A stretch of 40,024 nt of DNA from UHGV virus genome UHGV-0210832; one strand, given 5' to 3'. The notes under the pieces are model-generated. The model ran no database searches, was not told the origin of the DNA, and saw only the letters and a program-made list of their open reading frames with translations. The translations under genes were made by a program, and so were the position numbers. Positions within the stretch are counted from its first letter, which is position 1; each line of letters starts with the position of its first letter. The stretch comes from a virus. Shown here in pieces: positions 3,459 to 13,932 of the stretch.

Positions 3459-4082
3459 TTAAAATTCGAATTGTCTCGCCCGAAGGCTTTTCAACATTGG
3501 TCTTGCCCGTTCGAAAACGGCGCTTGTCTGATCAAGTCGTGTCGCCTCCCTTAGCAGTACATCTCTGTTTTTCGTCACCGCATAGAAGGTTTCAAACGCA
3601 ATGTCATACAGCTTACTCGCGTATGATGAGTTAAGTTCCTTCATTATCGGGTACAGGCGTTTGCAGATGTCCTGTGCATTCTCCATCTGTACCTGCATGT
3701 AGCACAGGAGGATGATTTCTTCGTCTGTGAATTGCTGCGCTGGTTGCATGTTGCGAAGTATCTTTTCGCACTCGATGAAGTATCGGCGTATCTGGCGGCC
3801 TTTTTCGTTACGCTCGACCATCGCCAGTTCTTTGGCTGTGTCGAGGGTGAGGTGGTAGTCCTTGCGGTTGTGACCGCCTCTACCAGATGTTTGCTTTCCC
3901 AAATTGGAAAGCAAAATATAGTCTTGATTTTCAATGAATTCGTATTCTGAAATGCGATTTGTAATCCATGCCGCAAACACCTTTTTCACGCCTAAAAAAG
4001 CATGCAGATCGCGGGCATTGCAGAGTAGGGCTGTTTCGTTGGATATAGTGCCGTTGAATACGGGGATGAGTTGACTGGTCAT
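3459..4082 (-). CDS. AntA/AntB-type antirepressor-like protein
   Basis: Start moved to MTSQLIPVFNG (ATG 4082-4080) because of GGAGG 5 nt upstream. NARDLHAFLGVKKVFAAWITNRISEYEFIENQDY resembles the AntA N-terminal domain as I recall it. Confidence 0.55.
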   Translation of the reverse strand: MTSQLIPVFNGTISNETALLCNARDLHAFLGVKKVFAAWITNRISEYEFIENQDYILLSNLGKQTSGRGGHNRKDYHLTLDTAKELAMVERNEKGRQIRRYFIECEKILRNMQPAQQFTDEEIILLCYMQVQMENAQDICKRLYPIMKELNSSYASKLYDIAFETFYAVTKNRDVLLREATRLDQTSAVFERARPMLKSLRARQFEF

Positions 4083-4244
4083 GATGACCTCCTTTGAAGT
4101 TTTAGTTAGCAATCACCAGTTAGTGGCTGGTGATCGGGTGTCAACTAGAGCCTTCAAAGACGCTCCGGGCATATTCCCCTTGCGGGTATTGTATTACGCC
4201 TCTCCACCCGACCTTTGTACGGATGTGACTATGCCAAATTGCAG

Positions 4245-4277
4245 GCATAAAAAAGCCGCAAAGCTATCGGGTGCGGA
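4245..4277 (-). terminator. Candidate intrinsic terminator inside the 355-bp intergenic gap of the leftward operon
   Basis: Minus-strand CCGCA-(11 nt loop)-TGCGG followed by CTTTTTTAT. A TTGACA hexamer lies about 40 nt upstream on the same strand. Confidence 0.35.
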
Positions 4278-4437
4278 TGACCGCTTTGAAGTTCTAGTGC
4301 GGTCAGTATGCGATAGCTCGAGCGGATTTGTCAAATCATGTAGTCTTTATCTTGCTGTAAGCCGCGCCATTCGGGCTTTTCCCCAGATTTGGGGGAAACT
4401 ATCTGCGAAGTATTCACCTTTAACGGCAAGTTGCAGG

Positions 4438-5001
4438 TTAGCCACGGTTAACCTCCTGCTTCGGTGCTGCTGGCATTTCACGCCAGTGCGTAACTGAGTG
4501 CGGATTCGGATATTCGGTGCCATCATCCCAGCGATTACCATTCCACATTGCAGACCACATCTCACCGTCTTCATACATGACCATTACCGGAATTAACTTA
4601 TCCGGCATTTGCTCACTACAGCTTATCCAGCCAGCCGGAGTTACCGGAGGGGTACCCGATAGCGCATTCTGCTCCAGTGATGCTTTTACAAACCACGCTG
4701 CCTGAACTATTACGCCATGAATCCAGCGCAAATCAGCATCGCGATCGTTCTTTTTCATCTTTTCACCACTTAAAGCCTGGCTTATGTGGCTGCGAACCAG
4801 GTCTTCATGTAACTCCTTCGCATCCTCAATGGTGAAACCACCAGGTAAACGCCCCGGAGTTACCGGAGAGTTACCAGCCTTGCGCATGGCAATTTCCACG
4901 ATTTCAACCATATCTTCTGGCAGAATTTTACAAAGCTGGCCAAAGCGCCTCTGCTGCCTGGCATACTCGAGGATGTGCTCCAGTTTGGTTCGATTAATCA
5001 T
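4438..5001 (-). CDS. Hypothetical phage protein, DUF551-like C-terminal region
   Basis: 187 aa ORF; ATG overlaps the stop of the upstream gene (ATGA coupling). C-terminal WISCSEQMPD...WDDGTEYPNPHSVTHWREMP resembles DUF551 phage proteins (from memory). Confidence 0.5.
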   Translation of the reverse strand: MINRTKLEHILEYARQQRRFGQLCKILPEDMVEIVEIAMRKAGNSPVTPGRLPGGFTIEDAKELHEDLVRSHISQALSGEKMKKNDRDADLRWIHGVIVQAAWFVKASLEQNALSGTPPVTPAGWISCSEQMPDKLIPVMVMYEDGEMWSAMWNGNRWDDGTEYPNPHSVTHWREMPAAPKQEVNRG

Positions 5002-5366
5002 GATTTATCCCCCTTAAGCATGGCTGCACGGCAGGCGTTCCATCCTCTCACCTCTGCAATAGCGGCAACAGCATCAACCGCGTACATGCTAAGAGGGTTC
5101 GGCATTGGTTTTTCTTCCGGCACTACTGGCGCTGGAGGGGCGGCGTATACTTCAATTGTCCCATTATCAATAGGCCACTCCCCATCCTTGATGTAGTCAC
5201 TTGTGCCATCGACCTGCTGTTCTGCAATGTGGAAAGCACCTATTGGTTTTGCTTCCAGTGATGCCAGTGCAATCCGTGCCAGTTCCATTTGTTCGCCACG
5301 AGTAAGTCCGTTATCAAGAGGATTTTTAATGAATAATTTGATACGTTCTTTGGTTATAGCGCTCAT
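4998..5366 (-). CDS. Hypothetical protein (122 aa)
   Basis: Start chosen at MSAITKERIK (ATG 5366-5364) with AAGGAGAG RBS 6 nt upstream; the longer track ORF begins in the preceding gene. Confidence 0.55.
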   Translation of the reverse strand: MSAITKERIKLFIKNPLDNGLTRGEQMELARIALASLEAKPIGAFHIAEQQVDGTSDYIKDGEWPIDNGTIEVYAAPPAPVVPEEKPMPNPLSMYAVDAVAAIAEVRGWNACRAAMLKGDKS

Positions 5367-5367
5367 A

Positions 5368-6006
5368 TCACTCTCCTTTAATGCGAATGCCAGCGGCGCG
5401 TGGCACATTAACTTCCACGATGCGCACAGTTGGTTTGTACATCTCAATCGCTGTCAGCCAGTCAGCGCCAGTCATGCGCTTTTCTGCATCGCCATTAGTC
5501 CACTTAACCGGTACACCAATAGCCTTCATCGCGATTTCTATTTCCCCGGCAATGGCGCTTTTTCCGCAACCAGTAAAACCAGAAACAACGACAAGAACTT
5601 CACCTTTGGCTGGTTTTATTTCCCGCGCTTCCAGTTCAGCAATACGCTTACTCCCATCCGAGATAACACCTTCGTAATACTCGCGTTGCTCGTTGAGTTT
5701 TGATTTTGCTTCCTCAAGCTCAACACGCAGTTTCCCCACCGTTAGCGCAATTTCCTCGTTCTCCTGGTCGCGGGATTTGATGTATTGCTGGTTCCTTTCC
5801 CGTTCATCCAGTAGTGCCAAAGCAACCTTTGGATTAAAGGCAGCAATAAATTCAGCGTTGTTTTTCAGAACGTGTTGCGCAATGGCCTGACTACTTAGTC
5901 GGACCTCATAACCACGTGCGCCACGGTGTGGTTTATATGAGTCCCAGTCTCCCCACGTTGCTTTCTCTGCCGCTTCACGCAGTGCCTGATAGTCAATCTT
6001 GCTCAC
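5368..6006 (-). CDS. Ead/Ea22-like protein
   Basis: 212 aa; N-terminal MSKIDYQALREAAEKATWGDW... and central coiled-coil resemble the Ead/Ea22 family common in lambdoid early-left regions (from memory). Confidence 0.6.
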   Translation of the reverse strand: MSKIDYQALREAAEKATWGDWDSYKPHRGARGYEVRLSSQAIAQHVLKNNAEFIAAFNPKVALALLDERERNQQYIKSRDQENEEIALTVGKLRVELEEAKSKLNEQREYYEGVISDGSKRIAELEAREIKPAKGEVLVVVSGFTGCGKSAIAGEIEIAMKAIGVPVKWTNGDAEKRMTGADWLTAIEMYKPTVRIVEVNVPRAAGIRIKGE

Positions 6007-6262
6007 TGGTTGCCTCCGTTTCCCACGTTTTCAAACTTTCACCACAGAACGGGCAAAAGCACATTGCAATGCCACGACCGATATATTTCCCCGAGTGAAT
6101 TTGAGCAATATCTATGCATGACTCGCCGGTGTTTATGTTCACACGCTCCGGGATAAATATGCCTTTACTCTTGAATGTTGGATTTCCATATTCGAGAGAT
6201 TTTGCCAACGCCGCGCACGGTTCTATCTTGTTGCCATTAATTTGGCATTTTGACTCACTCAC
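5993..6262 (-). CDS. Hypothetical Cys-rich small protein (possible zinc ribbon)
   Basis: 89 aa ORF with C...C and CPFC spacing; tightly packed in the operon. Confidence 0.45.
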   Translation of the reverse strand: MSESKCQINGNKIEPCAALAKSLEYGNPTFKSKGIFIPERVNINTGESCIDIAQIHSGKYIGRGIAMCFCPFCGESLKTWETEATSEQD

Positions 6263-6696
6263 TGGTTGCCTCCTTTGCGAAGCTGGGCGGCTAACTCATC
6301 ACATATGTGCGTCAAAGAGCAAAGTTTGATTGATGGATGTTCGCGCATCATCTCAACCCCCTGCGCCCGCACCTCAGCAAGGAAAGCATCGGTGGCTGGG
6401 GTGCCTGATTGCAGAGACTTTGCGCGATAGTCATTCCACCCTCTTGCATACATGGGATTAACTTGCACTCCATCTTTTACGCAATATGCCTGCCCTCCAC
6501 GGTTGATAACCTTGATTTCGTCCATAGCGCCAGACTTCAGCCCCGCATTCTCCGCTGCCAGCGCCGCGCACTTGGCCTGCGCTTCAGCAAATTTACGCAC
6601 CAGATATTCAGCGTTTGTTTCGTTAACCTTTAAATCTCGTGGGATGCATTTACCTTTCAGAAATCCATCCATCTCAATTAGTGTCATTTGTTTCAT
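6259..6696 (-). CDS. Hypothetical protein (145 aa)
   Basis: ORF in operon register; start/stop overlap with neighbours. Confidence 0.5.
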
Positions 6697-6860
6697 TTCT
6701 TCCCACTCCGCAACATCGCATTCAGATATTTGTTTTGATTCACTGACGGAAAAGAATTTCTCTTAAGCAATTCTTCCTCTCTCGATGGCATTGGCTTTAC
6801 GCGTTGGCGAATAATCATTTCTGCCGGAAGAATGCCGGGATTGTATGCAAGTCCTCTCAT
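6693..6860 (-). CDS. Hypothetical small protein (55 aa)
   Basis: Start set at MRGLAYNPG (ATG 6860-6858) with GAGGAA RBS; the longer track ORF would overlap the upstream gene by 56 nt. Confidence 0.4.
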
Positions 6861-6870
6861 GGTAAATTCC

Positions 6871-7164
6871 TCAGTCATTACTGATAGCGCCATAGCGTGA
6901 GCGGTAATTACGCAGGCGCGGGTCAATTTCAGGGAATTTGTCTATTGTCGCTTTTCGCAACGGTCGCATTGCTGTTTCGTTTGTTCGGTCCTTCTCATCT
7001 TTTAACGCGAGCTGTATATCGCGTCGGTACATCCGTTCTGCTTTTGTTTCTGGTGTCAGAGCAAGAAACGCGTCGAAATTGTTTTTGATATTTTCCAGCA
7101 CCTCCGCCTTGGAGCTACCGGAGCAGTTGCGCGGGTCATCCGCACCATACAGAGGCGCTGGCAT
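6871..7164 (-). CDS. Hypothetical protein (97 aa); weak guess at an Abc2-like anti-RecBCD function
   Basis: 97 aa ORF immediately downstream of the recombination module. The Abc2 idea rests only on position and size, not on recognised sequence. Confidence 0.4.
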
Positions 7165-7187
7165 AATGGGAGCCTTATTTTCAGTAA

Positions 7188-7775
7188 TCAGAAAGGAGGG
7201 TAATCGTTCTGGCTGTAACCATAATCATCTGCATGATTCTGGCTTACGTTTTTAGAGCGATTGTCTTTATCTTTGAGGCTGGCAACCATGTTGGCGATAG
7301 CTTCTGGTTGCTTGCCTTCCGCCTTTTCTTTAAGGGTTTGACCTGTTTGTGCAATAAACGGGATGCGTATTTCCATCTGGTAGCTGTCTGCGCCAGTCTT
7401 TTTGTTTGTGGTTAATACTTTCTGGAGCACTAACCCGATTTTCTTTCCATGAAATTCAGGTGCAACAAATTTACTGGCGGAAACCATATGCTGCGTTAAT
7501 TGTCCAATCCCGGCACACCCCATCATGGCGTGAACGACATTTGCGCCAAATTTGTTTTCCGTTCCGTCATTTTTCTGAACACAGACGCTAAGATATTGGA
7601 TTTTACGTCCGTCGTCAGATTCGCCAGAAAACTCAATAAATTTGGCTCCTTTTTCTGATTGCTTTAGTTCTGCTTCAGTAATGGTAATGATATGAGCACC
7701 AGTTTCGTTAATAAAACCACCTTGCCCTGCGGTCAGTGCTGCTTCTTCGTTATAAGTAAAAATCACGTTGCTCAT
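7188..7775 (-). CDS. Sak4-associated ssDNA-binding-like protein (DUF669-like)
   Basis: 195 aa, translationally coupled to the upstream RecA-like ATPase. Family assignment is from memory of Sak4 modules and not verified. Confidence 0.45.
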   Translation of the reverse strand: MSNVIFTYNEEAALTAGQGGFINETGAHIITITEAELKQSEKGAKFIEFSGESDDGRKIQYLSVCVQKNDGTENKFGANVVHAMMGCAGIGQLTQHMVSASKFVAPEFHGKKIGLVLQKVLTTNKKTGADSYQMEIRIPFIAQTGQTLKEKAEGKQPEAIANMVASLKDKDNRSKNVSQNHADDYGYSQNDYPPF

Positions 7776-8452
7776 GCGGCGTTTTCCTTAATTTGATGAA
7801 CATTATTGATGCCGTAGTAATCACAAACAGTGGCATCGACGAAAGAGAGATCGTTATCAATCTCATTGGAATCAAACATTCCCATTGGGGATTTAACAGT
7901 GTCTGCACCGTTGTTTTTTGTGGTGAAAAAGAACTGGTCATCACGGGTAAGGGTGCGAAGAACTATAGTAAACATGCCTTCGACAGTGATTTTCTCGTCC
8001 AGCATTTTGCCGATAGTCTTCATTTTCACACGCCCCATAGGAGTTTCTTCGGTGTGCGCAAGAAAATAGACTCTCAGATCATCAGGCGCATCCTGCGCAG
8101 CCTTAATGACCTCCCATGCGTGGCGGCCTATCTCAGTAAACTTATCAAACGATTTTTCTTCTGAGCGGCGCATAAACTCATTGCTCATCACATACTGGAA
8201 GTCATCAACAATAACGATTCTTTTTCCGTATTCGTGAGCACGCTTAATTACAGCAACTATTACGTCCCATTTGTCAGTGGTAACTACGGTTCCTTTTTTT
8301 GCTCTGGCATCCCACGCCAGCCATTCTTTTGATTTAAATGGTAGCGGCTTGCCTATTGGTTTTATAAGTATTGCTTCCTCTGGGTTGATATTTCTCATAC
8401 TGGTTGATTTTCCGGTGCCAGATTCACCGAGTATTAATGTTGCAGTTCCCAT
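7772..8452 (-). CDS. Sak4-like RecA-fold ATPase (core-only recombinase)
   Basis: 226 aa; Walker A GESGTGKS near the N-terminus and Walker B-like RIVIVDD; size and motifs fit Sak4-type phage recombinases. Confidence 0.65.
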   Translation of the reverse strand: MGTATLILGESGTGKSTSMRNINPEEAILIKPIGKPLPFKSKEWLAWDARAKKGTVVTTDKWDVIVAVIKRAHEYGKRIVIVDDFQYVMSNEFMRRSEEKSFDKFTEIGRHAWEVIKAAQDAPDDLRVYFLAHTEETPMGRVKMKTIGKMLDEKITVEGMFTIVLRTLTRDDQFFFTTKNNGADTVKSPMGMFDSNEIDNDLSFVDATVCDYYGINNVHQIKENAA

Positions 8453-8460
8453 AATTCACC

Positions 8461-8649
8461 TCAGAATGGTAATTCGGATGGGGAGGAAAGAAACTCGCGC
8501 TCATTCATGCGCTCTCTTTGTGCCTGCCATAAACAAAGTTGTTTCTTTGATTTATCTCCCGCTTTACGCCAGTAACGAGCCTCAGCAATGTGATATTCTC
8601 TTTTTAATCGACTTAACTCTGGAGTTTTCGCCAGTTCTACCGGAATCAT
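8461..8649 (-). CDS. Hypothetical small protein (62 aa)
   Basis: Start at MIPVELAK (ATG 8649-8647) with GGAGG upstream; ATGA overlap with the kil stop. Confidence 0.4.
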   Translation of the reverse strand: MIPVELAKTPELSRLKREYHIAEARYWRKAGDKSKKQLCLWQAQRERMNEREFLSSPSELPF

Positions 8650-8759
8650 TTTGACCTCCATTTCCTGTAGGCTTCGACGGCCTCACGAAACATCTTTTCA
8701 TCGCCAATAAAAGTGGCGATAGTGAATTTAGTCTGGATAGCCATAAGTGTTTTATCCAT
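8646..8759 (-). CDS. kil: Kil-like host-killing protein (37 aa)
   Basis: MDKTLMAIQTKFTIATFIGDEKMFREAVEAYRKWRSK resembles my recollection of the lambda Kil N-terminus. The ATG overlaps the cIII stop; the longer track ORF is an upstream extension. Confidence 0.6.
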   Translation of the reverse strand: MDKTLMAIQTKFTIATFIGDEKMFREAVEAYRKWRSK

Positions 8760-8892
8760 TTTTGGGAACTCCTGGCTGATTAAGTATGTCGATAAGGCGT
8801 TTCCATCCGTCACGTAATTTACGGGTGATTCGTTCAAGTAAAGATTCGGAAGGGCAGCCAGCAACAGGCCACCCTGCAATGGCATATTGCAT
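8752..8892 (-). CDS. cIII: CIII (FtsH inhibitor), 46 aa
   Basis: Not in the ORF track (under 60 aa). Manual translation from ATG 8892-8890 gives MQYAIAGWPVAGCPSESLLERITRKLRDGWKRLIDILNQPGVPKNG, matching lambda CIII as I recall it; AAGGAG RBS 7 nt upstream. Confidence 0.8.
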   Translation of the reverse strand: MQYAIAGWPVAGCPSESLLERITRKLRDGWKRLIDILNQPGVPKNG

Positions 8893-8964
8893 GGTGTGCT
8901 CCTTATTTATACATAACGAAAAACGCCTCGAGTGAAGCGTTATTGGTATGCGGTAACGCCGCGC

Positions 8965-9333
8965 TCAGGCGGCTTTGATAGTCATATCATCTGAATCAAA
9001 TATTCCTGATGTATCGATATCGGTAATTCTTATTCCTTCGCTACCATCCATTGGAGGCCATCCTTCCTGACCATTTCCATCATTCCAGTCGAACTCACAT
9101 ACAACACCATATGCATTTAAGTCTTTCGAAATTGCTATAAGCAGAGTATGTTGCGCCAGCATGATTAATACAGCATTTAATACAGAGCCGTGTTTATTGA
9201 GTCGGTATTCAGAGTCTGACCAGAAATTATTAATCTGGTGAAGTTTTTCCTCTGTCATTACGTCATGGTCGATTTCAATTTCTATTGATGCTTTCCAGTC
9301 GTAATCAATGATGTATTTTTTGATGTTTGACAT
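8965..9333 (-). CDS. Hypothetical acidic protein (122 aa)
   Basis: ORF with GAGGAT RBS upstream of ATG 9333; no recognisable domain. Confidence 0.5.
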   Translation of the reverse strand: MSNIKKYIIDYDWKASIEIEIDHDVMTEEKLHQINNFWSDSEYRLNKHGSVLNAVLIMLAQHTLLIAISKDLNAYGVVCEFDWNDGNGQEGWPPMDGSEGIRITDIDTSGIFDSDDMTIKAA

Positions 9334-9485: not shown

Positions 9486-9812
9486 CTACATAATTATTCC
9501 GGTTATTATTACCATTTCAATATCACTATCTTTCATAATGATTGGAGTTGAGTTATCAACTTTACTTTTACTCCATTTTCCTGCATCAGTTTTTACCACT
9601 CCACAATAAGAAAGCCAATCATCATCACAATGTTCTGGGTCGCTAATTCTAACAAGAACACGTGATAGTGCTTTTTCGATACTTTCATCACAATCAGCAT
9701 TTATGTAATTGCCGTGAGACAATTTCAAATCGTTAACCTCATCTTCATTGGCATCAAAAATATAGATTTCAGTCGACTCTGGAATATTTTCATAAACCAT
9801 TAAAATTTTCAT
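9486..9812 (-). CDS. Hypothetical protein (108 aa)
   Basis: ORF in the pL operon between N and cIII; no recognisable motif. Confidence 0.45.
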   Translation of the reverse strand: MKILMVYENIPESTEIYIFDANEDEVNDLKLSHGNYINADCDESIEKALSRVLVRISDPEHCDDDWLSYCGVVKTDAGKWSKSKVDNSTPIIMKDSDIEMVIITGIIM

Positions 9813-9866: not shown

Positions 9867-10316
9867 TTACTTAACCAATGATGCTGCATATTCGATAAGG
9901 TAAAGCTTTGGGGCCAGCAAAATTTTTAACCATGTCATATTGGTTACTACAGCAATAATAAAGCTTACCCACAGAACAAAAACTGCAGCTAATGGTAAGA
10001 TTAGAAAACTAATCTCACCGTTACTTTCCCAAATCATAGTCGGTTTGTATTTAGTCTTCCCCTTCTCCCATAACCATCCTTCATTATCGAATATACCAAT
10101 TTCAACTTTTTGGTACTGTTTCTTCATAAACCAGAAAACCAGTGGGATTGTTAGAATGGCTATTAATGTTTTAATCAGGCTATCAACCATATTCCATAGC
10201 AGCAACTGATGAACAACATCAGGAATCTGTGCCTGGCTAAATGAAACAGCCGCATCTATTCCATTGCTGGCTTTTTGCAGTAGTTCTACGAGAATCTTGT
10301 TTGCTTGTTCTTCCAT
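9867..10316 (-). CDS. Hypothetical membrane protein (149 aa, about 2 predicted TM helices)
   Basis: Hydrophobic stretches LIKTLIAILTIPLVFWF and ISFLILPLAAVFVLWVSFIIAVV; AAGGTG RBS before ATG 10316. Confidence 0.5.
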   Translation of the reverse strand: MEEQANKILVELLQKASNGIDAAVSFSQAQIPDVVHQLLLWNMVDSLIKTLIAILTIPLVFWFMKKQYQKVEIGIFDNEGWLWEKGKTKYKPTMIWESNGEISFLILPLAAVFVLWVSFIIAVVTNMTWLKILLAPKLYLIEYAASLVK

Positions 10317-10461: not shown

Positions 10462-11001
10462 ATGAGTAACTGGTGGCAGGAACTGTTACGTTTCTTCCTG
10501 CGTGGTCTTACGCTACAACAGTTAATTCATATGCTTATTATTTTAATTGCCTTGATAATAATCACCCCAGCATCAATTAAAGAGTGGGTAGATATAAGGA
10601 ACCCAGAAATACTTCCAGATCACTGGATGTATTACGCAATGCTTTTGTGTATCAGTTATGTTCTGAACAGGGTGATGGAGTTTATATTTCTGGCATCTTC
10701 AGACAGATATAAAAAATATCTCAGTAAGAGAGATGAGGCTAAAGTAATTGTGGAGACTGAGCGCCTGTTCAATTCTCTGAGTATTCAGGAAAAAGAGGTT
10801 TTAGCATTTGCTGTTATGGCAAATAACAAAATTGTACTTAAGCACGGCGATCCGGTCGCTTTATCTCTTATGAGAAAAGGCCTTCTCCATCGCTCAGGTG
10901 TGACTTACAGCGCGTCAGGTAAAGAGAAATTTGTTATACCTGACGTCTGGTTCCATGAGTGTTATATGCGCTTTGCTGGTAAAGCTGATGAGCTAATTTA
11001 G
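10462..11001 (+). CDS. sieB: Superinfection-exclusion SieB-like membrane protein
   Basis: Start set at MSNWWQELL (ATG 10462) with GGAGA RBS; N-terminal TM helix LIHMLIILIALIIITPASI. Sits between N and cIII on the opposite strand to pL, as I recall for sieB in lambda and P22. Confidence 0.4.
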   Translation: MSNWWQELLRFFLRGLTLQQLIHMLIILIALIIITPASIKEWVDIRNPEILPDHWMYYAMLLCISYVLNRVMEFIFLASSDRYKKYLSKRDEAKVIVETERLFNSLSIQEKEVLAFAVMANNKIVLKHGDPVALSLMRKGLLHRSGVTYSASGKEKFVIPDVWFHECYMRFAGKADELI

Positions 11002-11022: not shown

Positions 11023-11229
11023 TCACCTCGCTGTCAGTTGTTTTGATTTCCGGTAGCCTGCCGCGTAAATGGCTACGTTTGGCAGGCAGCACGAACCACA
11101 TTCAACCTTCTTCCTATTCGCTCCTGCTAGCGAAACCACCATTGAAACACGGTCAATATTTTTACGTTTTGCTGTCGCCTCTTTGTGCTTACGAGCGCGT
11201 TCGAGTTTGCGAATCTCTCTTGCTTTCAC
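11023..11229 (-). CDS. N: N-like early antiterminator (P22 gene 24 type)
   Basis: 68 aa with GTG start and GGAGG RBS. C-terminal SLAGANRKKVECGSCCLPNVAIYAAGYRKSKQLTAR resembles my recollection of P22 gp24. First gene downstream of pL/nutL. Confidence 0.65.
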   Translation of the reverse strand: MKAREIRKLERARKHKEATAKRKNIDRVSMVVSLAGANRKKVECGSCCLPNVAIYAAGYRKSKQLTAR

Positions 11230-11468: not shown

Positions 11469-11554
11469 AAGATAACTTAGGTTATAGGTGTGGTCAATAA
11501 CTTAGTTTATATTTTGTGGTAAATAAGTTATAAGTGATGGATAACAAAGGTATT
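11469..11554 (-). promoter_or_regulatory. OL operators and pL promoter
   Basis: Palindromes ATAACTTAGGTTAT (11472-11485), ATAACTTAGTTTAT (11497-11510) and ATAACAAAGGTATT (11541-11554). Minus-strand TTGACC (-35) and TATCTT (-10) with 17-nt spacer overlap the first operator. Confidence 0.6.
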
Positions 11555-11682
11555 TTATTTTTGTAAATGTTGAGGATGAAGGTGATGGGGCAGGGATCAG
11601 GGTTGCACTGTTTAGCAAGTTGTATCTATTTATTTTTCAACAAATACAATTGGTTATGTGTTTTTAGGTGGGCGAACGTGAG

Positions 11683-11710
11683 GCAAAGAAAACCCGGCAC
11701 TGAGGCCGGG
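11683..11710 (-). terminator. Candidate intrinsic terminator ending the cI-side operon (tIMM-like)
   Basis: Minus-strand CCCGGC-CTCAGT-GCCGGG hairpin followed by TTTTCTTTG, about 15 nt after the small ORF stop. Confidence 0.5.
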
Positions 11711-11724
11711 ATGTGAGGAATTAA

Positions 11725-11910
11725 TTACAGAGCAAAGAGATCACGCATTAGGTTGCTGTTCATCTGGTGGTTGAATTGATACGGCTCCAGTTCTTTTTTG
11801 ATCTCGTTCAGGTGCTGTTCCGCTTTTCTTGCCAGATTGCGACTTTCTTGGATCTGGCTTTCCAACATTTTGTTGAGAATTTCCATCTCCGGTTGCAGAT
11901 TCTTCGGCAT
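11725..11910 (-). CDS. Small predicted coiled-coil protein (61 aa) in the rex-equivalent locus
   Basis: AAAGAGGA RBS 8 nt before ATG 11910; codons in this frame are host-typical (CTG, CCG, AAC, GAG); the frame closes 14 codons upstream of the ATG. Confidence 0.5.
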   Translation of the reverse strand: MPKNLQPEMEILNKMLESQIQESRNLARKAEQHLNEIKKELEPYQFNHQMNSNLMRDLFAL

Positions 11911-12745
11911 TAGTATTGTCCTCTTTATCTTGTGTAGTAAGAGGGAAATCCATCACCCTTGGTTTTCCAAACGTTGGGATTTCACCACTATGAATCTTAT
12001 CACAGAAAAAATTATCGAGTATTTCTGTTATACCTTTAGGACATTCAACACACTTGAAAAGTTCCTTGGCTTCTTTTCTGTCGATAACAAATCCATGTGA
12101 AGGATACGAAGCGATGAGTTTGCTTAACGCCCCTTCTTTTAGACTACTTGGCTTGTCTGCTAACCGTTGACCATAAGTGATAGCAATGCTCATCGCACGC
12201 TGATGCTCACCAAGTTTTATTGGATCTATCTGAGCAGCCATGGGGGCTATCAATGCCTCTGTAAGTCTGGTTGCGATGTCAGCAGATATTTTAGTGCTTA
12301 TCTGGTTTTCGTATTTTATCTGAACAAGGTATGAGTTAAACGCTGAAATAGAGCGCTCCTTCAGTGCATCGAGAGCTGTCATAATGGCTAAACCAGAACT
12401 CATCTCACCTATTTCATCGTTTTTTTTCAGTTGGATATCTAATGGCCCGAGCTCACCCATGTCACCGATAACAAGTTTATTCGCAGCTATGGCTATTAGT
12501 GTACCAGCACTTTTGCACGGCCCAACAACTAAAAGTGTTACCGTTTCATAATAGTGCTGGAGAGCCCTACCTATACGATAACCAGCATTAGGATCACCGC
12601 CATAAGTAGCAACACAGAAGATAACATTCTTTTTTAATTCATTTTGTGACTTACGCTTCTTGATTTTATTGGTTAGATCAAGATAACCATCACGATGAAT
12701 ATCGCCTATATACACATAAACATCATTATTTTCAATAGTATTCAT
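11741..12745 (-). CDS. ClpP/crotonase-fold (S49/SDH-like) serine-protease-domain protein in the rexAB-equivalent position
   Basis: 334 aa; GGGAG RBS before ATG 12745. N-terminal ~130 aa align by eye to ClpP: VATYGGDPNAGYRIG against YINSPGGVITAG and VVGPCKSAGTLIAIAANK against CMGQAASMGAFLLTAG (putative nucleophile Ser in KSAG). The last ~56 codons overlap the 61-aa ORF in another frame and use rare codons. Confidence 0.55.
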   Translation of the reverse strand: MNTIENNDVYVYIGDIHRDGYLDLTNKIKKRKSQNELKKNVIFCVATYGGDPNAGYRIGRALQHYYETVTLLVVGPCKSAGTLIAIAANKLVIGDMGELGPLDIQLKKNDEIGEMSSGLAIMTALDALKERSISAFNSYLVQIKYENQISTKISADIATRLTEALIAPMAAQIDPIKLGEHQRAMSIAITYGQRLADKPSSLKEGALSKLIASYPSHGFVIDRKEAKELFKCVECPKGITEILDNFFCDKIHSGEIPTFGKPRVMDFPLTTQDKEDNTNAEESATGDGNSQQNVGKPDPRKSQSGKKSGTAPERDQKRTGAVSIQPPDEQQPNA

Positions 12746-12888
12746 TCGTTAAACTCCCTGTTGTGGTTACGATGAATGTATTCATGTTGAGGATAAGACA
12801 TAGTGGTTTGTCATCATCGCTAATCTGGCGCAATTGACTTTTCATAAATCACAATTGGAATCACCCAAACGTCTCTTCAGGCCACTGG

Positions 12889-13596
12889 TTACCAGCTATG
12901 TGATGACCAGAATACTCTACCAATAATCCTTACTGTTTCATGAAACTCATCTCTATCCATTACTTCATCAGGGTACTCTTCGCGATTTATTGATCTGATT
13001 ATCACCGATGTTGGGGTGGCGATTAATGTTTTTACTCGTAACAAATCAGACTGGCAAATAGCGTAGGTTTTACCATCTCTGATTGTGGTATCTTGTGTGT
13101 TAACGCCAACAACATCTCCGTCGTGAAGCGTTGGTTCCATGCTTTGCCCTACAACCCTAACTAGCTTGGCTGATCTTTCAGATACCCCCATCTTTTTCAG
13201 ATAGTACTTTCTGAAAACCAAAGAGAACTCTGATGATTCCTCTAGCTCGCAGCTACCGCTTCCAGCTGAAAGCGAAACGTTAAGAAGAGGCAACGCGACA
13301 AACTCGTCATCGTTTCTTTTAATATCTTCCCATACCACAGCTTTTAAAGATGATTCACGGACATTGGATGGTTCTTCATGTGTACCATCCCTCATTTCAC
13401 CAATACCAGAGCTAAGCCATTCAGGGCGTACTTTTAAAGCATTGGCTAATTCAACCATCTTGCGAGATCCGTTTGTTTTACCGGATGACATCTTCTGTAT
13501 GGCTGGCTGAGATATTCCAACCATGTCAGCAAGCTGTGATTGCGATACGCCTGCTGAGCTCATGGCTGCATTTAGTCTTTCTGCGAATGTTTTCAT
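12889..13596 (-). CDS. cI: CI-type prophage repressor (HTH plus LexA/S24-like autocleavage domain)
   Basis: Start set at MKTFAERLN (ATG 13596) because the longer track ORF would run into the OR3 operator. HTH region QSQLADMVGISQPAIQKMSSG; C-terminal GQSMEPTLHDGDVV fits the S24 peptidase Ser region. Confidence 0.8.
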   Translation of the reverse strand: MKTFAERLNAAMSSAGVSQSQLADMVGISQPAIQKMSSGKTNGSRKMVELANALKVRPEWLSSGIGEMRDGTHEEPSNVRESSLKAVVWEDIKRNDDEFVALPLLNVSLSAGSGSCELEESSEFSLVFRKYYLKKMGVSERSAKLVRVVGQSMEPTLHDGDVVGVNTQDTTIRDGKTYAICQSDLLRVKTLIATPTSVIIRSINREEYPDEVMDRDEFHETVRIIGRVFWSSHSW

Positions 13597-13608
13597 ACCC
13601 ACAAATCT

Positions 13609-13671
13609 ATAACTACGGTTATCCAAAGTAAAATAACAAAGGTTATTGCTATTTTTTATAACTTGAGTTAT
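13609..13671. promoter_or_regulatory. OR operators (three ATAACnnnnGTTAT palindromes) with embedded divergent pRM/pR
   Basis: ATAACTACGGTTAT (13609-13622), ATAACAAAGGTTAT (13633-13646) and ATAACTTGAGTTAT (13658-13671), spaced about 24-25 bp, between divergent cI and cro. Confidence 0.7.
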
Positions 13672-13707
13672 CTTTGGTTATAAGTAATGACCACAAGAGG
13701 TATGCTC

Positions 13708-13932
13708 ATGAATTTAGTAATTCAACGAGCCTTGAAAATTGTTGGTAGCCAAAAGCGCCTTGCCGACAAGTGTGGTGTAACGCAGCCAGCAGTACACAAA
13801 TGGCTGAAAGGCGGGTTGGTCTCTCCAGAGAAAGTTACCGCCATCGTTAACGCCACTGGAGGGCAGATCAAGGCTTACGAAATTCGCCCCGATTTGCCAC
13901 ACCTGTTTCCAAAACCGAATCAGGCAGCATAA
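13708..13932 (+). CDS. cro: Cro-like repressor
   Basis: Start set at MNLVIQRALK (ATG 13708) with AAGAGG RBS at 13695-13700. HTH GSQKRLADKCGVTQPAVHKW; first rightward gene after OR. Confidence 0.7.
   Translation: MNLVIQRALKIVGSQKRLADKCGVTQPAVHKWLKGGLVSPEKVTAIVNATGGQIKAYEIRPDLPHLFPKPNQAA

What the first reader, a model, noticed from the sequence alone, without database searches (positions are those of the whole stretch)
11725..12745. Two-gene insert in the rexAB-equivalent position: a ClpP-fold protease-like protein plus a small coiled-coil protein
A 334-aa gene and an overlapping 61-aa gene lie on the cI strand between the cI stop (12889) and OL/pL (11469-11554), exactly where lambda carries rexA-rexB. 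They are followed by their own terminator (11683-11710). The N-terminal ~130 aa of the large protein align by eye with the ClpP core, including a candidate nucleophile Ser in the GPCKSAG context; the C-terminal ~200 aa are helical and unassigned. Lysogen-expressed genes at this locus in lambdoid phages are typically exclusion or abortive-infection functions, and I do not recognise a serine-protease-domain protein here as a described system. This is my best candidate for a new prophage-encoded defence or lysogenic-conversion module.
Basis: partly seen in the sequence, partly recalled or inferred. Interest (0 to 1): 0.85.

Follow-up and report, generated by a model that had tools for sequence, protein, structure and literature searches.

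The report
Prophage protease gene hiding a second gene
Next to the repressor gene of an E. coli prophage, where phage lambda keeps its rexAB exclusion genes, sits a rare mobile cassette encoding a ClpP-fold serine protease with a second, 61-residue helical protein encoded in another reading frame inside the protease gene's tail; it is probably a new prophage defence or accessory module, but its function is untested.

Summary
ORF 11741-12745(-) (334 aa) and ORF 11725-11910(-) (61 aa, +1 frame, 170-nt overlap) lie between cI (12889-13626) and OL/pL, and end at an intrinsic terminator (11683-11710).

- **Small ORF.** It appears to be a real, usually unannotated gene. In the overlap the substitution pattern switches to the +1 frame (frame-0 dN/dS about 0.95, +1 about 0.40). 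Its ATG and Shine-Dalgarno (SD) ribosome-binding site are conserved, and it models as one long helix.
- **Mobility.** The cassette is rare (28 of 5,426 E. coli genomes). It travels without other partner genes. It sits behind different repressors (19 of 51 distinct viral loci, and in Bartonella) or next to integrases.

A defence or exclusion function is inferred from position only. Verdict: new variant of a known kind, interest about 0.6.

The parts
11741..12745 (-). 334-aa SDH-type ClpP-fold serine protease. Residues 1-105 form the alpha/beta core, 118-270 a helical domain, and 271-334 a disordered hydrophilic tail.
12509..12511 (-). Codon of Ser79, the predicted nucleophile, in the motif GPCKSAG.
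   Evidence: Aligns with S. aureus ClpP Ser98. Lies at the strand-to-helix elbow E68-77/H80-86. Conserved in 36 of 37 diverse homologues.
12437..12439 (-). Codon of Asp103 (motif GELGPLD), the candidate triad Asp. Candidate His codons are H181 (12203-12205) and H217 (12095-12097).
   Evidence: Invariant in 37 of 37 homologues. No His lies between residues 80 and 180, so the ClpP Ser-His-Asp order is excluded (sequence). The geometry was not checked.
11725..11910 (-). Nested 61-aa gene in the +1 frame: MPKNLQPEMEILNKMLESQIQESRNLARKAEQHLNEIKKELEPYQFNHQMNSNLMRDLFAL. It models as one long amphipathic helix. Its last 5 codons lie beyond the protease stop codon.
   Evidence: In the overlap, frame-0 dN/dS is 0.95 (CI 0.70-1.43) and +1 frame dN/dS is 0.40 (CI 0.29-0.51). 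The pos1/pos3 substitution ratio is 1.69, against 0.22-0.5 in the core. Amino-acid identity is 0.70 in +1 and 0.57 in frame 0 in a gap-free set, Wilcoxon p=0.004. A second clade and two sequence pairs show the same trend. AF2 gives a helix over 3-60, pLDDT 86. A few records call it a 61-aa hypothetical protein.
11919..11925 (-). Shine-Dalgarno-like AAGAGGA, 8 nt upstream of the nested gene's ATG (11908-11910).
   Evidence: Sequence. GAGG-type motifs at the same spacing recur across most of the enterobacterial clade.
11683..11710 (-). Intrinsic terminator that closes the cI-protease-small ORF transcription unit.
   Evidence: Terminator scan. Equivalent hairpins follow the small ORF in most of the enterobacterial and Morganella-like homologous loci examined.
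12746..12903 (-). Upstream end of the mobile cassette. It is an intergenic leader with SD CAGGGAG before the protease ATG and no convincing promoter of its own.
   Evidence: Homology to other E. coli prophages runs from 11593 to 12903 and stops at the cI stop codon. The promoter scan finds nothing usable.
12889..13626 (-). cI-type repressor (HTH_3 + Peptidase_S24). It is context and the presumed source of transcription. The true start is probably the ATG near 13596.
   Evidence: Pfam. An OR operator overlaps the TTG start given by the ORF list.
11469..11510 (-). OL operators (11472-11485, 11497-11510) and the pL-like promoter.

Best explanation
**Shown.** This is a self-contained mobile accessory cassette that sits directly downstream of the prophage repressor gene. 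It encodes two proteins from one stretch of DNA.
1. A cytoplasmic ClpP-fold serine protease of the Ser-Asp-His (SDH, PF01972-like) type. Its conserved residues suggest it is catalytically competent.
2. A 61-residue amphipathic helical protein, translated from its own SD and ATG in the +1 frame inside the protease's disordered tail.

**Inferred.**
- In the lysogen the cassette is read through from the cI promoters and stops at its own terminator.
- Its role is protection of the lysogen against other phages, by superinfection exclusion or abortive infection. This is the role of rexAB and bstA at the same slot.
- The protease is the effector. It would cleave a phage or host protein needed for infection.
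- The helical protein is its partner: an inhibitor, a substrate or a sensor. Its conserved nonpolar C-terminus ([DE]-x-[FYC]-x-[LFM]) resembles a C-terminal degron or a protease-docking tail. The closest analogy is the NfeD protease, which cleaves the C-terminal hydrophobic region of its operon partner stomatin.
For: - **Anatomy and fold:**
- **Catalytic residues:** S79, D103, H181 and H217 are invariant or nearly so in 37 homologues at 41-90% identity.
- **Nested gene:** purifying selection acts on the +1 frame while frame 0 is relaxed. The ATG and SD are conserved, a terminator follows directly, and the C-terminal residues outside the overlap are conserved. The model is a single helix.
- **Frame 0 is kept open:** with synonymous codons resampled on the +1 protein, the median probability that frame 0 stays open is 0.065 per lineage. 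Both products therefore seem to be retained.
- **Lysogenic-expression niche:** the upstream same-strand neighbour is an S24/HTH repressor in 19 of 51 distinct viral loci and in Bartonella. Elsewhere the gene lies next to an integrase or at an element edge.
- **No third partner:** upstream and downstream neighbours are otherwise diverse.
- **Rare and mosaic:** it is in 28 of 5,426 complete E. coli genomes, single copy, as two alleles behind different repressors. Phages with the same immunity carry other cargo or nothing in the slot.
- **Hotspot:** the cI-N interval is a documented mosaic hotspot that holds the abortive-infection systems rexAB and bstA (Owen et al., bioRxiv 10.1101/2020.07.13.199331). 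SieB is encoded 0.7 kb away. GmrSD is the neighbour in two loci.
Against: - No experiment or paper links this family to phage resistance.
- PADLOC-DB v2 has no matching model, so membership of any known defence system is unsupported.
- Position is only circumstantial. Virulence, regulatory and metabolic accessory genes (morons) use the same slots.
- The catalytic triad is inferred from conservation, not geometry.
- Expression of the small ORF is inferred from evolution only. PGAP never annotates it.
- Selection on the +1 frame is clear in the enterobacterial clade and suggestive in three or four others. It is not shown for the whole family.
- Openness of the +1 frame is largely a by-product of a hydrophilic frame-0 tail.
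- An HMM of the enterobacterial small protein does not significantly detect the +1 peptides of other clades.
Confidence: 0.45

Rival explanations
1. It is a lysogeny or induction accessory rather than a defence. The protease acts on the prophage's own regulatory circuit. For example, it could clear repressor fragments after RecA-stimulated S24 self-cleavage, or degrade Cro-, CII- or N-type regulators. That would tune maintenance or induction.
For: - The gene lies directly downstream of S24/HTH repressors in 19 of 51 distinct viral loci and in Bartonella.
- In the Klebsiella phage it sits beside an XRE plus ImmA/IrrE immunity pair.
- Host ClpXP is known to clear LexA cleavage fragments (my own knowledge, not tested here).
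Against: - The same cassette sits behind unrelated repressors.
- It also occurs with no repressor nearby: next to integrases, at element edges, or alone in a Neisseria chromosome.
- Phages with the same cI manage without it.
Confidence: 0.15
2. It is a host-directed lysogenic-conversion factor. An NfeD-like protease would process a host protein, for example an SPFH/stomatin-family protein or another envelope or stress factor. This would change host physiology rather than phage sensitivity.
For: - The best Foldseek PDB hits are the stomatin-specific protease 1510-N and SppA.
- Pfam NfeD1b_N scores 5e-4.
- Accessory genes at this slot include non-defence functions.
Against: - There is no signal peptide or membrane segment (sequence).
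- No SPFH gene is linked to it in any locus examined.
Confidence: 0.1
3. Only the protease is real. The 61-aa ORF is not translated, and its apparent conservation reflects nucleotide-level constraints or the composition of a hydrophilic tail.
For: - A frame-0 tail poor in NTN codons cannot create +1 stops. The median probability that +1 stays open, given frame 0, is 0.55.
- D/E/N-rich tails create ATG and GAGG motifs in the +1 frame.
- PGAP does not call the ORF.
- There is no significant cross-clade homology among the +1 peptides.
Against: - Composition does not explain why substitutions concentrate at the +1 wobble position: 501, 318 and 259 at frame-0 positions 1, 2 and 3, against 7460, 3335 and 23310 in the core.
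- The +1 peptide is more conserved than the frame-0 tail (0.70 vs 0.57).
- Frame-0 dN/dS is about 1 while +1 is about 0.4.
- The five C-terminal codons beyond the protease stop keep a conserved motif.
Confidence: 0.15
4. It is a displaced remnant of a head-maturation protease and scaffold module. Such modules often nest a scaffold gene in the 3' part of a ClpP- or S49-like protease gene, as in lambda C/Nu3.
For: - Weak hits to ClpP-related head-maturation proteases: NCBIfam NF045542 at 7e-8 and PHROG 1684 at 6e-7.
- A helical protein nested at the 3' end recalls protease-scaffold nesting (my own knowledge).
Against: - Scores are far below the family cut-off (32.6 vs 120 bits).
- The gene lies in the immunity region on the lysogenic strand, about 11 kb from the terminase, portal, scaffold and coat genes.
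- The window resembles P22-like phages such as HK620 and CUS-3, a type that needs no prohead protease (my own knowledge).
- The gene also occurs in P2-like and other phages as an extra gene.
Confidence: 0.04

Closest known systems
SDH-type ClpP-like serine proteinases (Pfam PF01972, NCBIfam NF047768; MEROPS S49-related)
   Same: It shares the ClpP-fold core plus a helical domain. Invariant Ser, Asp and His occur in that order. PGAP gives homologues this name. Foldseek aligns 230-285 columns with PF01972-annotated giant-virus proteins.
   Different: It is very divergent: 26.6 bits against the Pfam cut-off of 31.3, and 34 bits against the NCBIfam equivalog cut-off of 250. It has a 64-residue disordered tail that carries a nested +1 gene. 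It is a prophage moron. The function of the family itself is unknown.
NfeD / 1510-N protease with its operon partner stomatin (Pyrococcus PH1510/PH1511)
   Different: 1510-N uses a Ser-Lys dyad and is membrane-anchored. Its partner is a separate SPFH-domain gene, not a nested ORF. No sequence-level membership was found (NfeD1b_N 20 bits vs 40).
Lambda rexAB and Salmonella BTP1 bstA (abortive-infection genes downstream of cI)
   Same: They occupy the identical slot between cI and OL/pL, on the cI strand, with their own terminator. They are a mosaic cargo hotspot, expressed in lysogens (Owen et al.).
   Different: There is no sequence or fold relationship (PADLOC 0 hits). RexB is a membrane protein, and BstA carries a KilA-N/DNA-binding domain (my own recollection, not checked here); neither is a protease. 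A defence phenotype is proven for them and untested here.
ClpP (S14)
   Different: There is no His about 25 residues after the Ser; D103 occupies that stretch. It has an extra helical domain. No ClpX- or ClpA-type partner is linked, and its oligomeric state is unknown.
Nested or overlapping phage gene pairs (lambda C/Nu3, Rz/Rz1)
   Same: Two functionally linked proteins are encoded in one stretch of phage DNA. The second protein starts inside the first gene.
   Different: Nu3 is in frame with C, and Rz1 lies wholly inside Rz. Here the second gene is in the +1 frame, overlaps only the disordered tail, and runs 16 nt past the first gene's stop. This comparison is from my own knowledge and was not tested.

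Membership tests
ClpP/crotonase fold | alpha/beta core with the nucleophile at a strand-helix elbow | tested here: met
SDH-type proteinase (Pfam PF01972) | score at or above the Pfam gathering threshold | tested here: not met
   26.6 bits vs 31.3; only profile positions 96-161 of 286 align. Most homologues carry a precomputed PF01972 hit.
SDH-type proteinase (NCBIfam NF047768 equivalog) | score at or above the curated cut-off | tested here: not met
   34.1 bits vs 250. PGAP nevertheless applies the name to homologues.
SDH-type proteinase | catalytic Ser, Asp and His in that sequence order | tested here: inconclusive
   S79 (36/37), D103, H181 and H217 (37/37) are conserved in the right order.
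SDH-type proteinase | full-length architecture (core plus helical domain) | tested here: met
   BFVD Foldseek top hits are 'Serine dehydrogenase proteinase' of giant viruses: E 6e-8 to 1e-5, 230-285 aligned columns, TMt up to 0.71.
ClpP (S14) | Ser-His-Asp triad with the His about 25 residues after the Ser | tested here: not met
   There is no His between residues 80 and 180. The aligned stretch is ELGPLDIQ.
SppA/NfeD (Ser-Lys dyad proteases) | general-base Lys paired with the Ser | tested here: inconclusive
   K78 is invariant and K108 nearly so, but their equivalence to the dyad Lys was not established. Pfam NfeD1b_N scores 20.1 vs 40.
ClpP-related head-maturation protease (NF045542) | curated score, and location in the head-morphogenesis module | tested here: not met
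   32.6 bits vs 120. The gene lies in the immunity region on the lysogenic strand.
RexAB | homology to RexA or RexB | tested here: not met
   No PADLOC hit for either protein. Only the genomic position is shared.
Any catalogued anti-phage defence system (PADLOC-DB v2.0.0, 2023) | match to a system protein model | tested here: not met
   0 families for both proteins at E<=1. Newer catalogues (DefenseFinder 2024 onward) could not be searched.
Functional overlapping (dual-coding) gene pair | purifying selection on the alternative frame, beyond compositional effects | tested here: met
   Enterobacterial clade: +1 dN/dS 0.40 (CI 0.29-0.51), frame-0 0.95 (CI 0.70-1.43), pos1/pos3 ratio 1.69. Gap-free set: p=0.004. 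Second clade: 0.46 vs 0.68. The L069/L078 pair has 0.87 identity in +1 vs 0.56 in frame 0.
Functional overlapping (dual-coding) gene pair | translation of the nested ORF | not testable with these tools
   Only indirect evidence is available: the ATG with an SD 8 nt upstream is conserved across most of the enterobacterial clade.
Anti-phage defence (functional class) | reduces phage infection when expressed | not testable with these tools
   Needs plaque or infection assays.

The most novel reading that the evidence does not exclude
The cassette is a new kind of single-locus prophage immunity module. Its effector is an SDH-type ClpP-fold protease. Its regulator, a labile inhibitor, substrate or sensor, is a coiled-coil protein overprinted in the +1 frame on the protease's own disordered tail. 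The two products would then be made in fixed linkage from one mRNA. This overprinted pair would be conserved across Proteobacteria.
Probability: 0.25. Interest if true: 0.8.

Novelty: new variant of a known kind. Interest (0 to 1): 0.6.

Why it matters
- **A new candidate at a classic slot.** If the cassette protects lysogens, it adds a protease-based mechanism to the cI-N hotspot that already gave rexAB and bstA. It would also give a first biological role to the uncharacterised SDH (PF01972-like) protease family. That family reaches from enterobacterial prophages to Bartonella and, at the fold level, to giant viruses.
- **A missed gene.** Whatever the function, the nested +1 gene is a clean case of a conserved dual-coding region that standard annotation (PGAP) misses. 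An annotated disordered tail can hide a second protein. The case also supplies a ready genetic test: the ATG can be killed by a change that is silent in the protease frame.

Tried and rejected
- **Literature.** Nine full-text searches found no functional study of this family. One apparent 'SppA' hit was a text artefact. Brenes & Laub 2025 on E. coli prophage defence systems is not held. DefensePredictor and a domain-centric screen do not mention Clp/S49/SppA proteases in their main text.
- **PDB by sequence.** A profile search found nothing. Only fold searches were informative.
- **AFDB50.** The fold library was unavailable.
- **Open reading frame as evidence.** I first took the near-universal open +1 frame as evidence for the nested gene, then rejected it. 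A hydrophilic frame-0 tail lacks NTN codons and so cannot create +1 stops. The same composition creates ATG and GAGG motifs.
- **The +1 dN/dS measure alone.** NN/NS also falls to 0.33-0.5 in strongly constrained core windows. It is meaningful only together with frame-0 dN/dS near 1 and the shift in codon-position substitutions.
- **Cross-clade homology.** An HMM of the enterobacterial small protein finds no significant match among other clades' +1 peptides.
- **Upstream partner.** The 37-aa ORF 12732-12845 and the 71-aa Klebsiella upstream ORF are unrelated, so there is no conserved upstream partner.
- **Failed control.** An ungapped 'core' control was misaligned and is disregarded. The core figures come from the codon alignments.
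- **Frameshift fusion.** A programmed-frameshift fusion product was considered. No slippery site lies in the 14 codons between the upstream +1 stop and the ATG, and the ATG and SD are conserved, so independent initiation is more likely.
Full report
**What is in the sequence**

The window is a lambdoid, P22/HK620-like E. coli prophage. On the minus strand the order is as follows.
- OR, with three ATAAC-N4-GTTAT operators at 13609-13671.
- cI at 12889-13626, carrying HTH_3 and Peptidase_S24.
- A 143-nt leader.
- A 334-aa ORF at 11741-12745.
- A 61-aa ORF at 11725-11910. It overlaps the last 170 nt of the large ORF in the +1 frame.
- A GC-rich hairpin with a T tract at 11710-11683.
- OL, with two operators, and a pL-like promoter at 11510-11469.
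- N at 11023-11229.

SieB is encoded on the other strand at 10462-11001. Cro and CII lie to the right of OR. The operator palindrome occurs nowhere else in the 40 kb, and none of 100 shuffles reached the observed count.

**It is a mobile insert**

- The block 11593-12903 runs from just beyond the terminator to the cI stop codon. It recurs at 99-100% or about 90% identity in other E. coli prophages, behind repressors unrelated to this one.
- Phage SH2026Stx1 has about 92% DNA identity across the cI region. It carries a DUF3024 gene and two other ORFs in the slot. Stx1a_10051 has nothing there.
- Only 28 of 5,426 complete E. coli genomes carry the gene, each as a single chromosomal copy.
- Only 2 of 50,697 deposited phage genomes carry it.

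**The large protein**

- *Sequence models* give weak but consistent hits. They are Pfam SDH_protease 3.7e-6, CLP_protease 5.5e-4 and NfeD1b_N 5e-4, plus NCBIfam Clp_like_SDH 1.9e-8 and ClpP-related head-maturation protease 7e-8. All are below or at their curated cut-offs. PHROG 21683, of unknown function, matches full length. PADLOC gives nothing.
- *The AlphaFold model* was built from a 37-sequence alignment. It is confident for residues 4-106 and 116-270 and disordered for 271-334.
- *Against viral models*, the best hits are giant-virus 'serine dehydrogenase proteinases' aligned over 230-285 columns. The helical domain therefore belongs to the SDH-family architecture.
- *Catalytic residues.* S79 (GPCKSAG) aligns with the ClpP catalytic Ser98. 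Across 37 homologues at 41-90% identity, S79 is kept in 36, and D103, H181 and H217 are invariant. K78, R57, R60, H64, E98, Q105, R183, D222 and R223 are also invariant. No His lies where ClpP has one.

My reading is that this is an active Ser-Asp-His protease and a divergent subfamily of the SDH proteinases. The triad geometry itself was not checked. PGAP already names homologues 'SDH family Clp fold serine proteinase', so the family is known by name. I found no study of its function.

**The small ORF**

At first sight the evidence looks overwhelming. In almost all of about 90 homologous loci at 40-100% identity, the +1 frame is open for 55-120 codons and ends a few nucleotides after the protease stop. 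The loci are 80 from IMG/VR plus genomic ones. The +2 frame is closed.

This is mostly a compositional artefact. A hydrophilic tail lacks NTN codons and so cannot generate +1 stops. Given the frame-0 tail, the median probability that +1 stays open is 0.55.

The substitution pattern is not an artefact. In codon alignments of 20 distinct enterobacterial sequences:

| Measure | Core | Last 60 codons |
|---|---|---|
| Differences at frame-0 positions 1, 2, 3 | 7460, 3335, 23310 | 3637, 2496, 2100 |
| Frame-0 dN/dS | 0.06-0.3 | 0.95 (bootstrap CI 0.70-1.43) |
| +1 frame dN/dS | not applicable | 0.40 (CI 0.29-0.51) |
| Position-1 to position-3 ratio | 0.22-0.5 | 1.69 |

- *Gap-free subset.* In eight sequences without gaps, the +1 peptide is 70% identical on average and the frame-0 tail 57%. 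The paired per-codon test gives p=0.004.
- *Other clades.* A Morganella-like clade shows the same shift (frame-0 0.68, +1 0.46, ratio 1.26). Two sequence pairs do too (+1 vs frame-0 identity 0.87 vs 0.56, and 0.52 vs 0.33). Alignments of the remaining clades' tails are too poor to judge.
- *Start, end and C-terminus.* The ATG is preceded by a GAGG-type SD at 7-9 nt across most of the enterobacterial clade. A terminator follows the stop codon directly. The five C-terminal residues, which lie outside the overlap, keep a [DE]-x-[FYC]-x-[LFM] motif.
- *Frame 0 is also kept open.* If the +1 protein is held fixed and its synonymous codons are resampled, frame 0 stays open with a median probability of only 0.065 per lineage. 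The protease tail is therefore also being kept, and the region is dual-coding.
- *Structure and annotation.* The 61-aa protein models as one long amphipathic helix with pLDDT 86. A handful of records annotate it as a 61-aa hypothetical protein. PGAP never does.

Translation remains unproven.

**Genomic niche**

- In 19 of 51 distinct viral loci the upstream same-strand neighbour is an S24 repressor, and 14 of the 51 match HTH_3.
- The same arrangement occurs in Bartonella at 44% protein identity.
- Other homologues lie next to an integrase at a prophage end. Examples are the P2-like Burkholderia phage and locus L092.
- Others lie at the edge of a mobile element (Malonomonas), as an opposite-strand moron beside an XRE/ImmA pair (Klebsiella phage), or alone in a Neisseria chromosome.
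- Downstream neighbours are diverse: N five times, integrase two or three times, GmrSD twice, plus methylases and a toxin-antitoxin antidote.

The unit that moves is the protease gene with its nested ORF and terminator. It has no third partner. It lands where genes are expressed from the resident prophage.

**Function (inference)**

- The cI-N interval is a recognised mosaic hotspot. It houses the abortive-infection systems rexAB (lambda) and bstA (BTP1), both thought to share the repressor's strong lysogenic promoter (Owen et al., bioRxiv 10.1101/2020.07.13.199331).
- The same is true, from my own knowledge, of integrase-proximal slots in P2-like phages.
- The cassette is rare and mosaic, swaps with alternative cargo, and sits next to sieB.

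Together these make a superinfection-exclusion or abortive-infection role the most likely one, at about 0.45. I propose that the protease is the effector. The helical protein would be its co-translated partner: an inhibitor, a substrate or a sensor. Its nonpolar C-terminus resembles a degron or docking tail. The closest structural analogue is NfeD 1510-N, which cleaves the hydrophobic C-terminal region of its operon partner stomatin. None of this is tested.

The rivals are:
- a role in the prophage's own repressor or induction circuit (0.15);
- a host-directed conversion function (0.1);
- a protease-only gene with an untranslated ORF (0.15, which concerns only the small ORF);
- a displaced head-protease and scaffold remnant (0.04).

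**Novelty and verdict**

The fold, the family name and the genomic slot are all known kinds. What is new is the combination: an SDH-type ClpP-fold protease as the rex-slot cargo, absent from PADLOC v2 and from the searchable literature, with a conserved overprinted partner gene that annotation misses. I rate it a new variant of a known kind, with interest about 0.6. It is still well above ordinary, because the dual-coding architecture is real and gives a sharp, cheap experimental handle.

Noticed in passing
window 10462-11001 (+): A SieB superinfection-exclusion homologue (Pfam SieB 3e-20) is encoded antisense to the pL operon, just left of N. The immunity region therefore already carries one recognised exclusion gene beside the protease cassette.
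   Followed up: partly
window 9867-10316 (-), 9486-9812 (-), 7188-7775 (-): Three pL-operon ORFs of 149, 108 and 195 aa have no Pfam match. They are further unassigned early-left genes. ORF 8965-9333 is DUF2528.
   Followed up: no
window 13687-13932 (+): The Cro-position gene scores better against Pfam YdaS_toxin (1.5e-17) than against P22_Cro (1.3e-5).
   Followed up: no
window 12420-12427 (-): An A8 run (CTGAAAAAAAAC) encodes K107-K108-N109, in the only low-confidence loop of the protease core (residues 107-115). It is a potential slippage site. One homologue (L019) has a truncated 142-aa ORF, but I did not check where it breaks.
   Followed up: no
L086 (phage SH2026Stx1) 2812-4184; L087 (Stx1a_10051): Phages with the same immunity carry different cargo in the cI-OL slot (a DUF3024 protein, a 177-aa ORF and a 44-aa ORF) or none. 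The slot is variable.
   Followed up: partly
L088 (Bartonella) 8001-8984; L092 7001-7984; enterobacterial loci: The +1 peptides of distant clades share a short P-Y-[QH] motif near the C-terminus (LEPYQF, IPYQI, TPYH). This hints at real cross-clade homology that the HMM search did not detect.
   Followed up: no
L088 (Bartonella chromosome) 4078-8984: Two HTH+S24 repressor genes and the protease gene sit in what looks like a small degraded prophage remnant next to housekeeping transporters. The repressor-protease pair may persist after the rest of the phage has decayed.
   Followed up: no
two IMG/VR loci among L006-L085 (downstream neighbours): GmrSD-type restriction endonuclease domains occur immediately downstream of the protease cassette in two loci. 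This is a weak defence-island signal.
   Followed up: no
window 13596-13626 (-): The mechanical ORF start of cI (TTG at 13626) overlaps an OR operator (13609-13622). The real start is probably the ATG of MKTFAERL, about 30 nt downstream.
   Followed up: no
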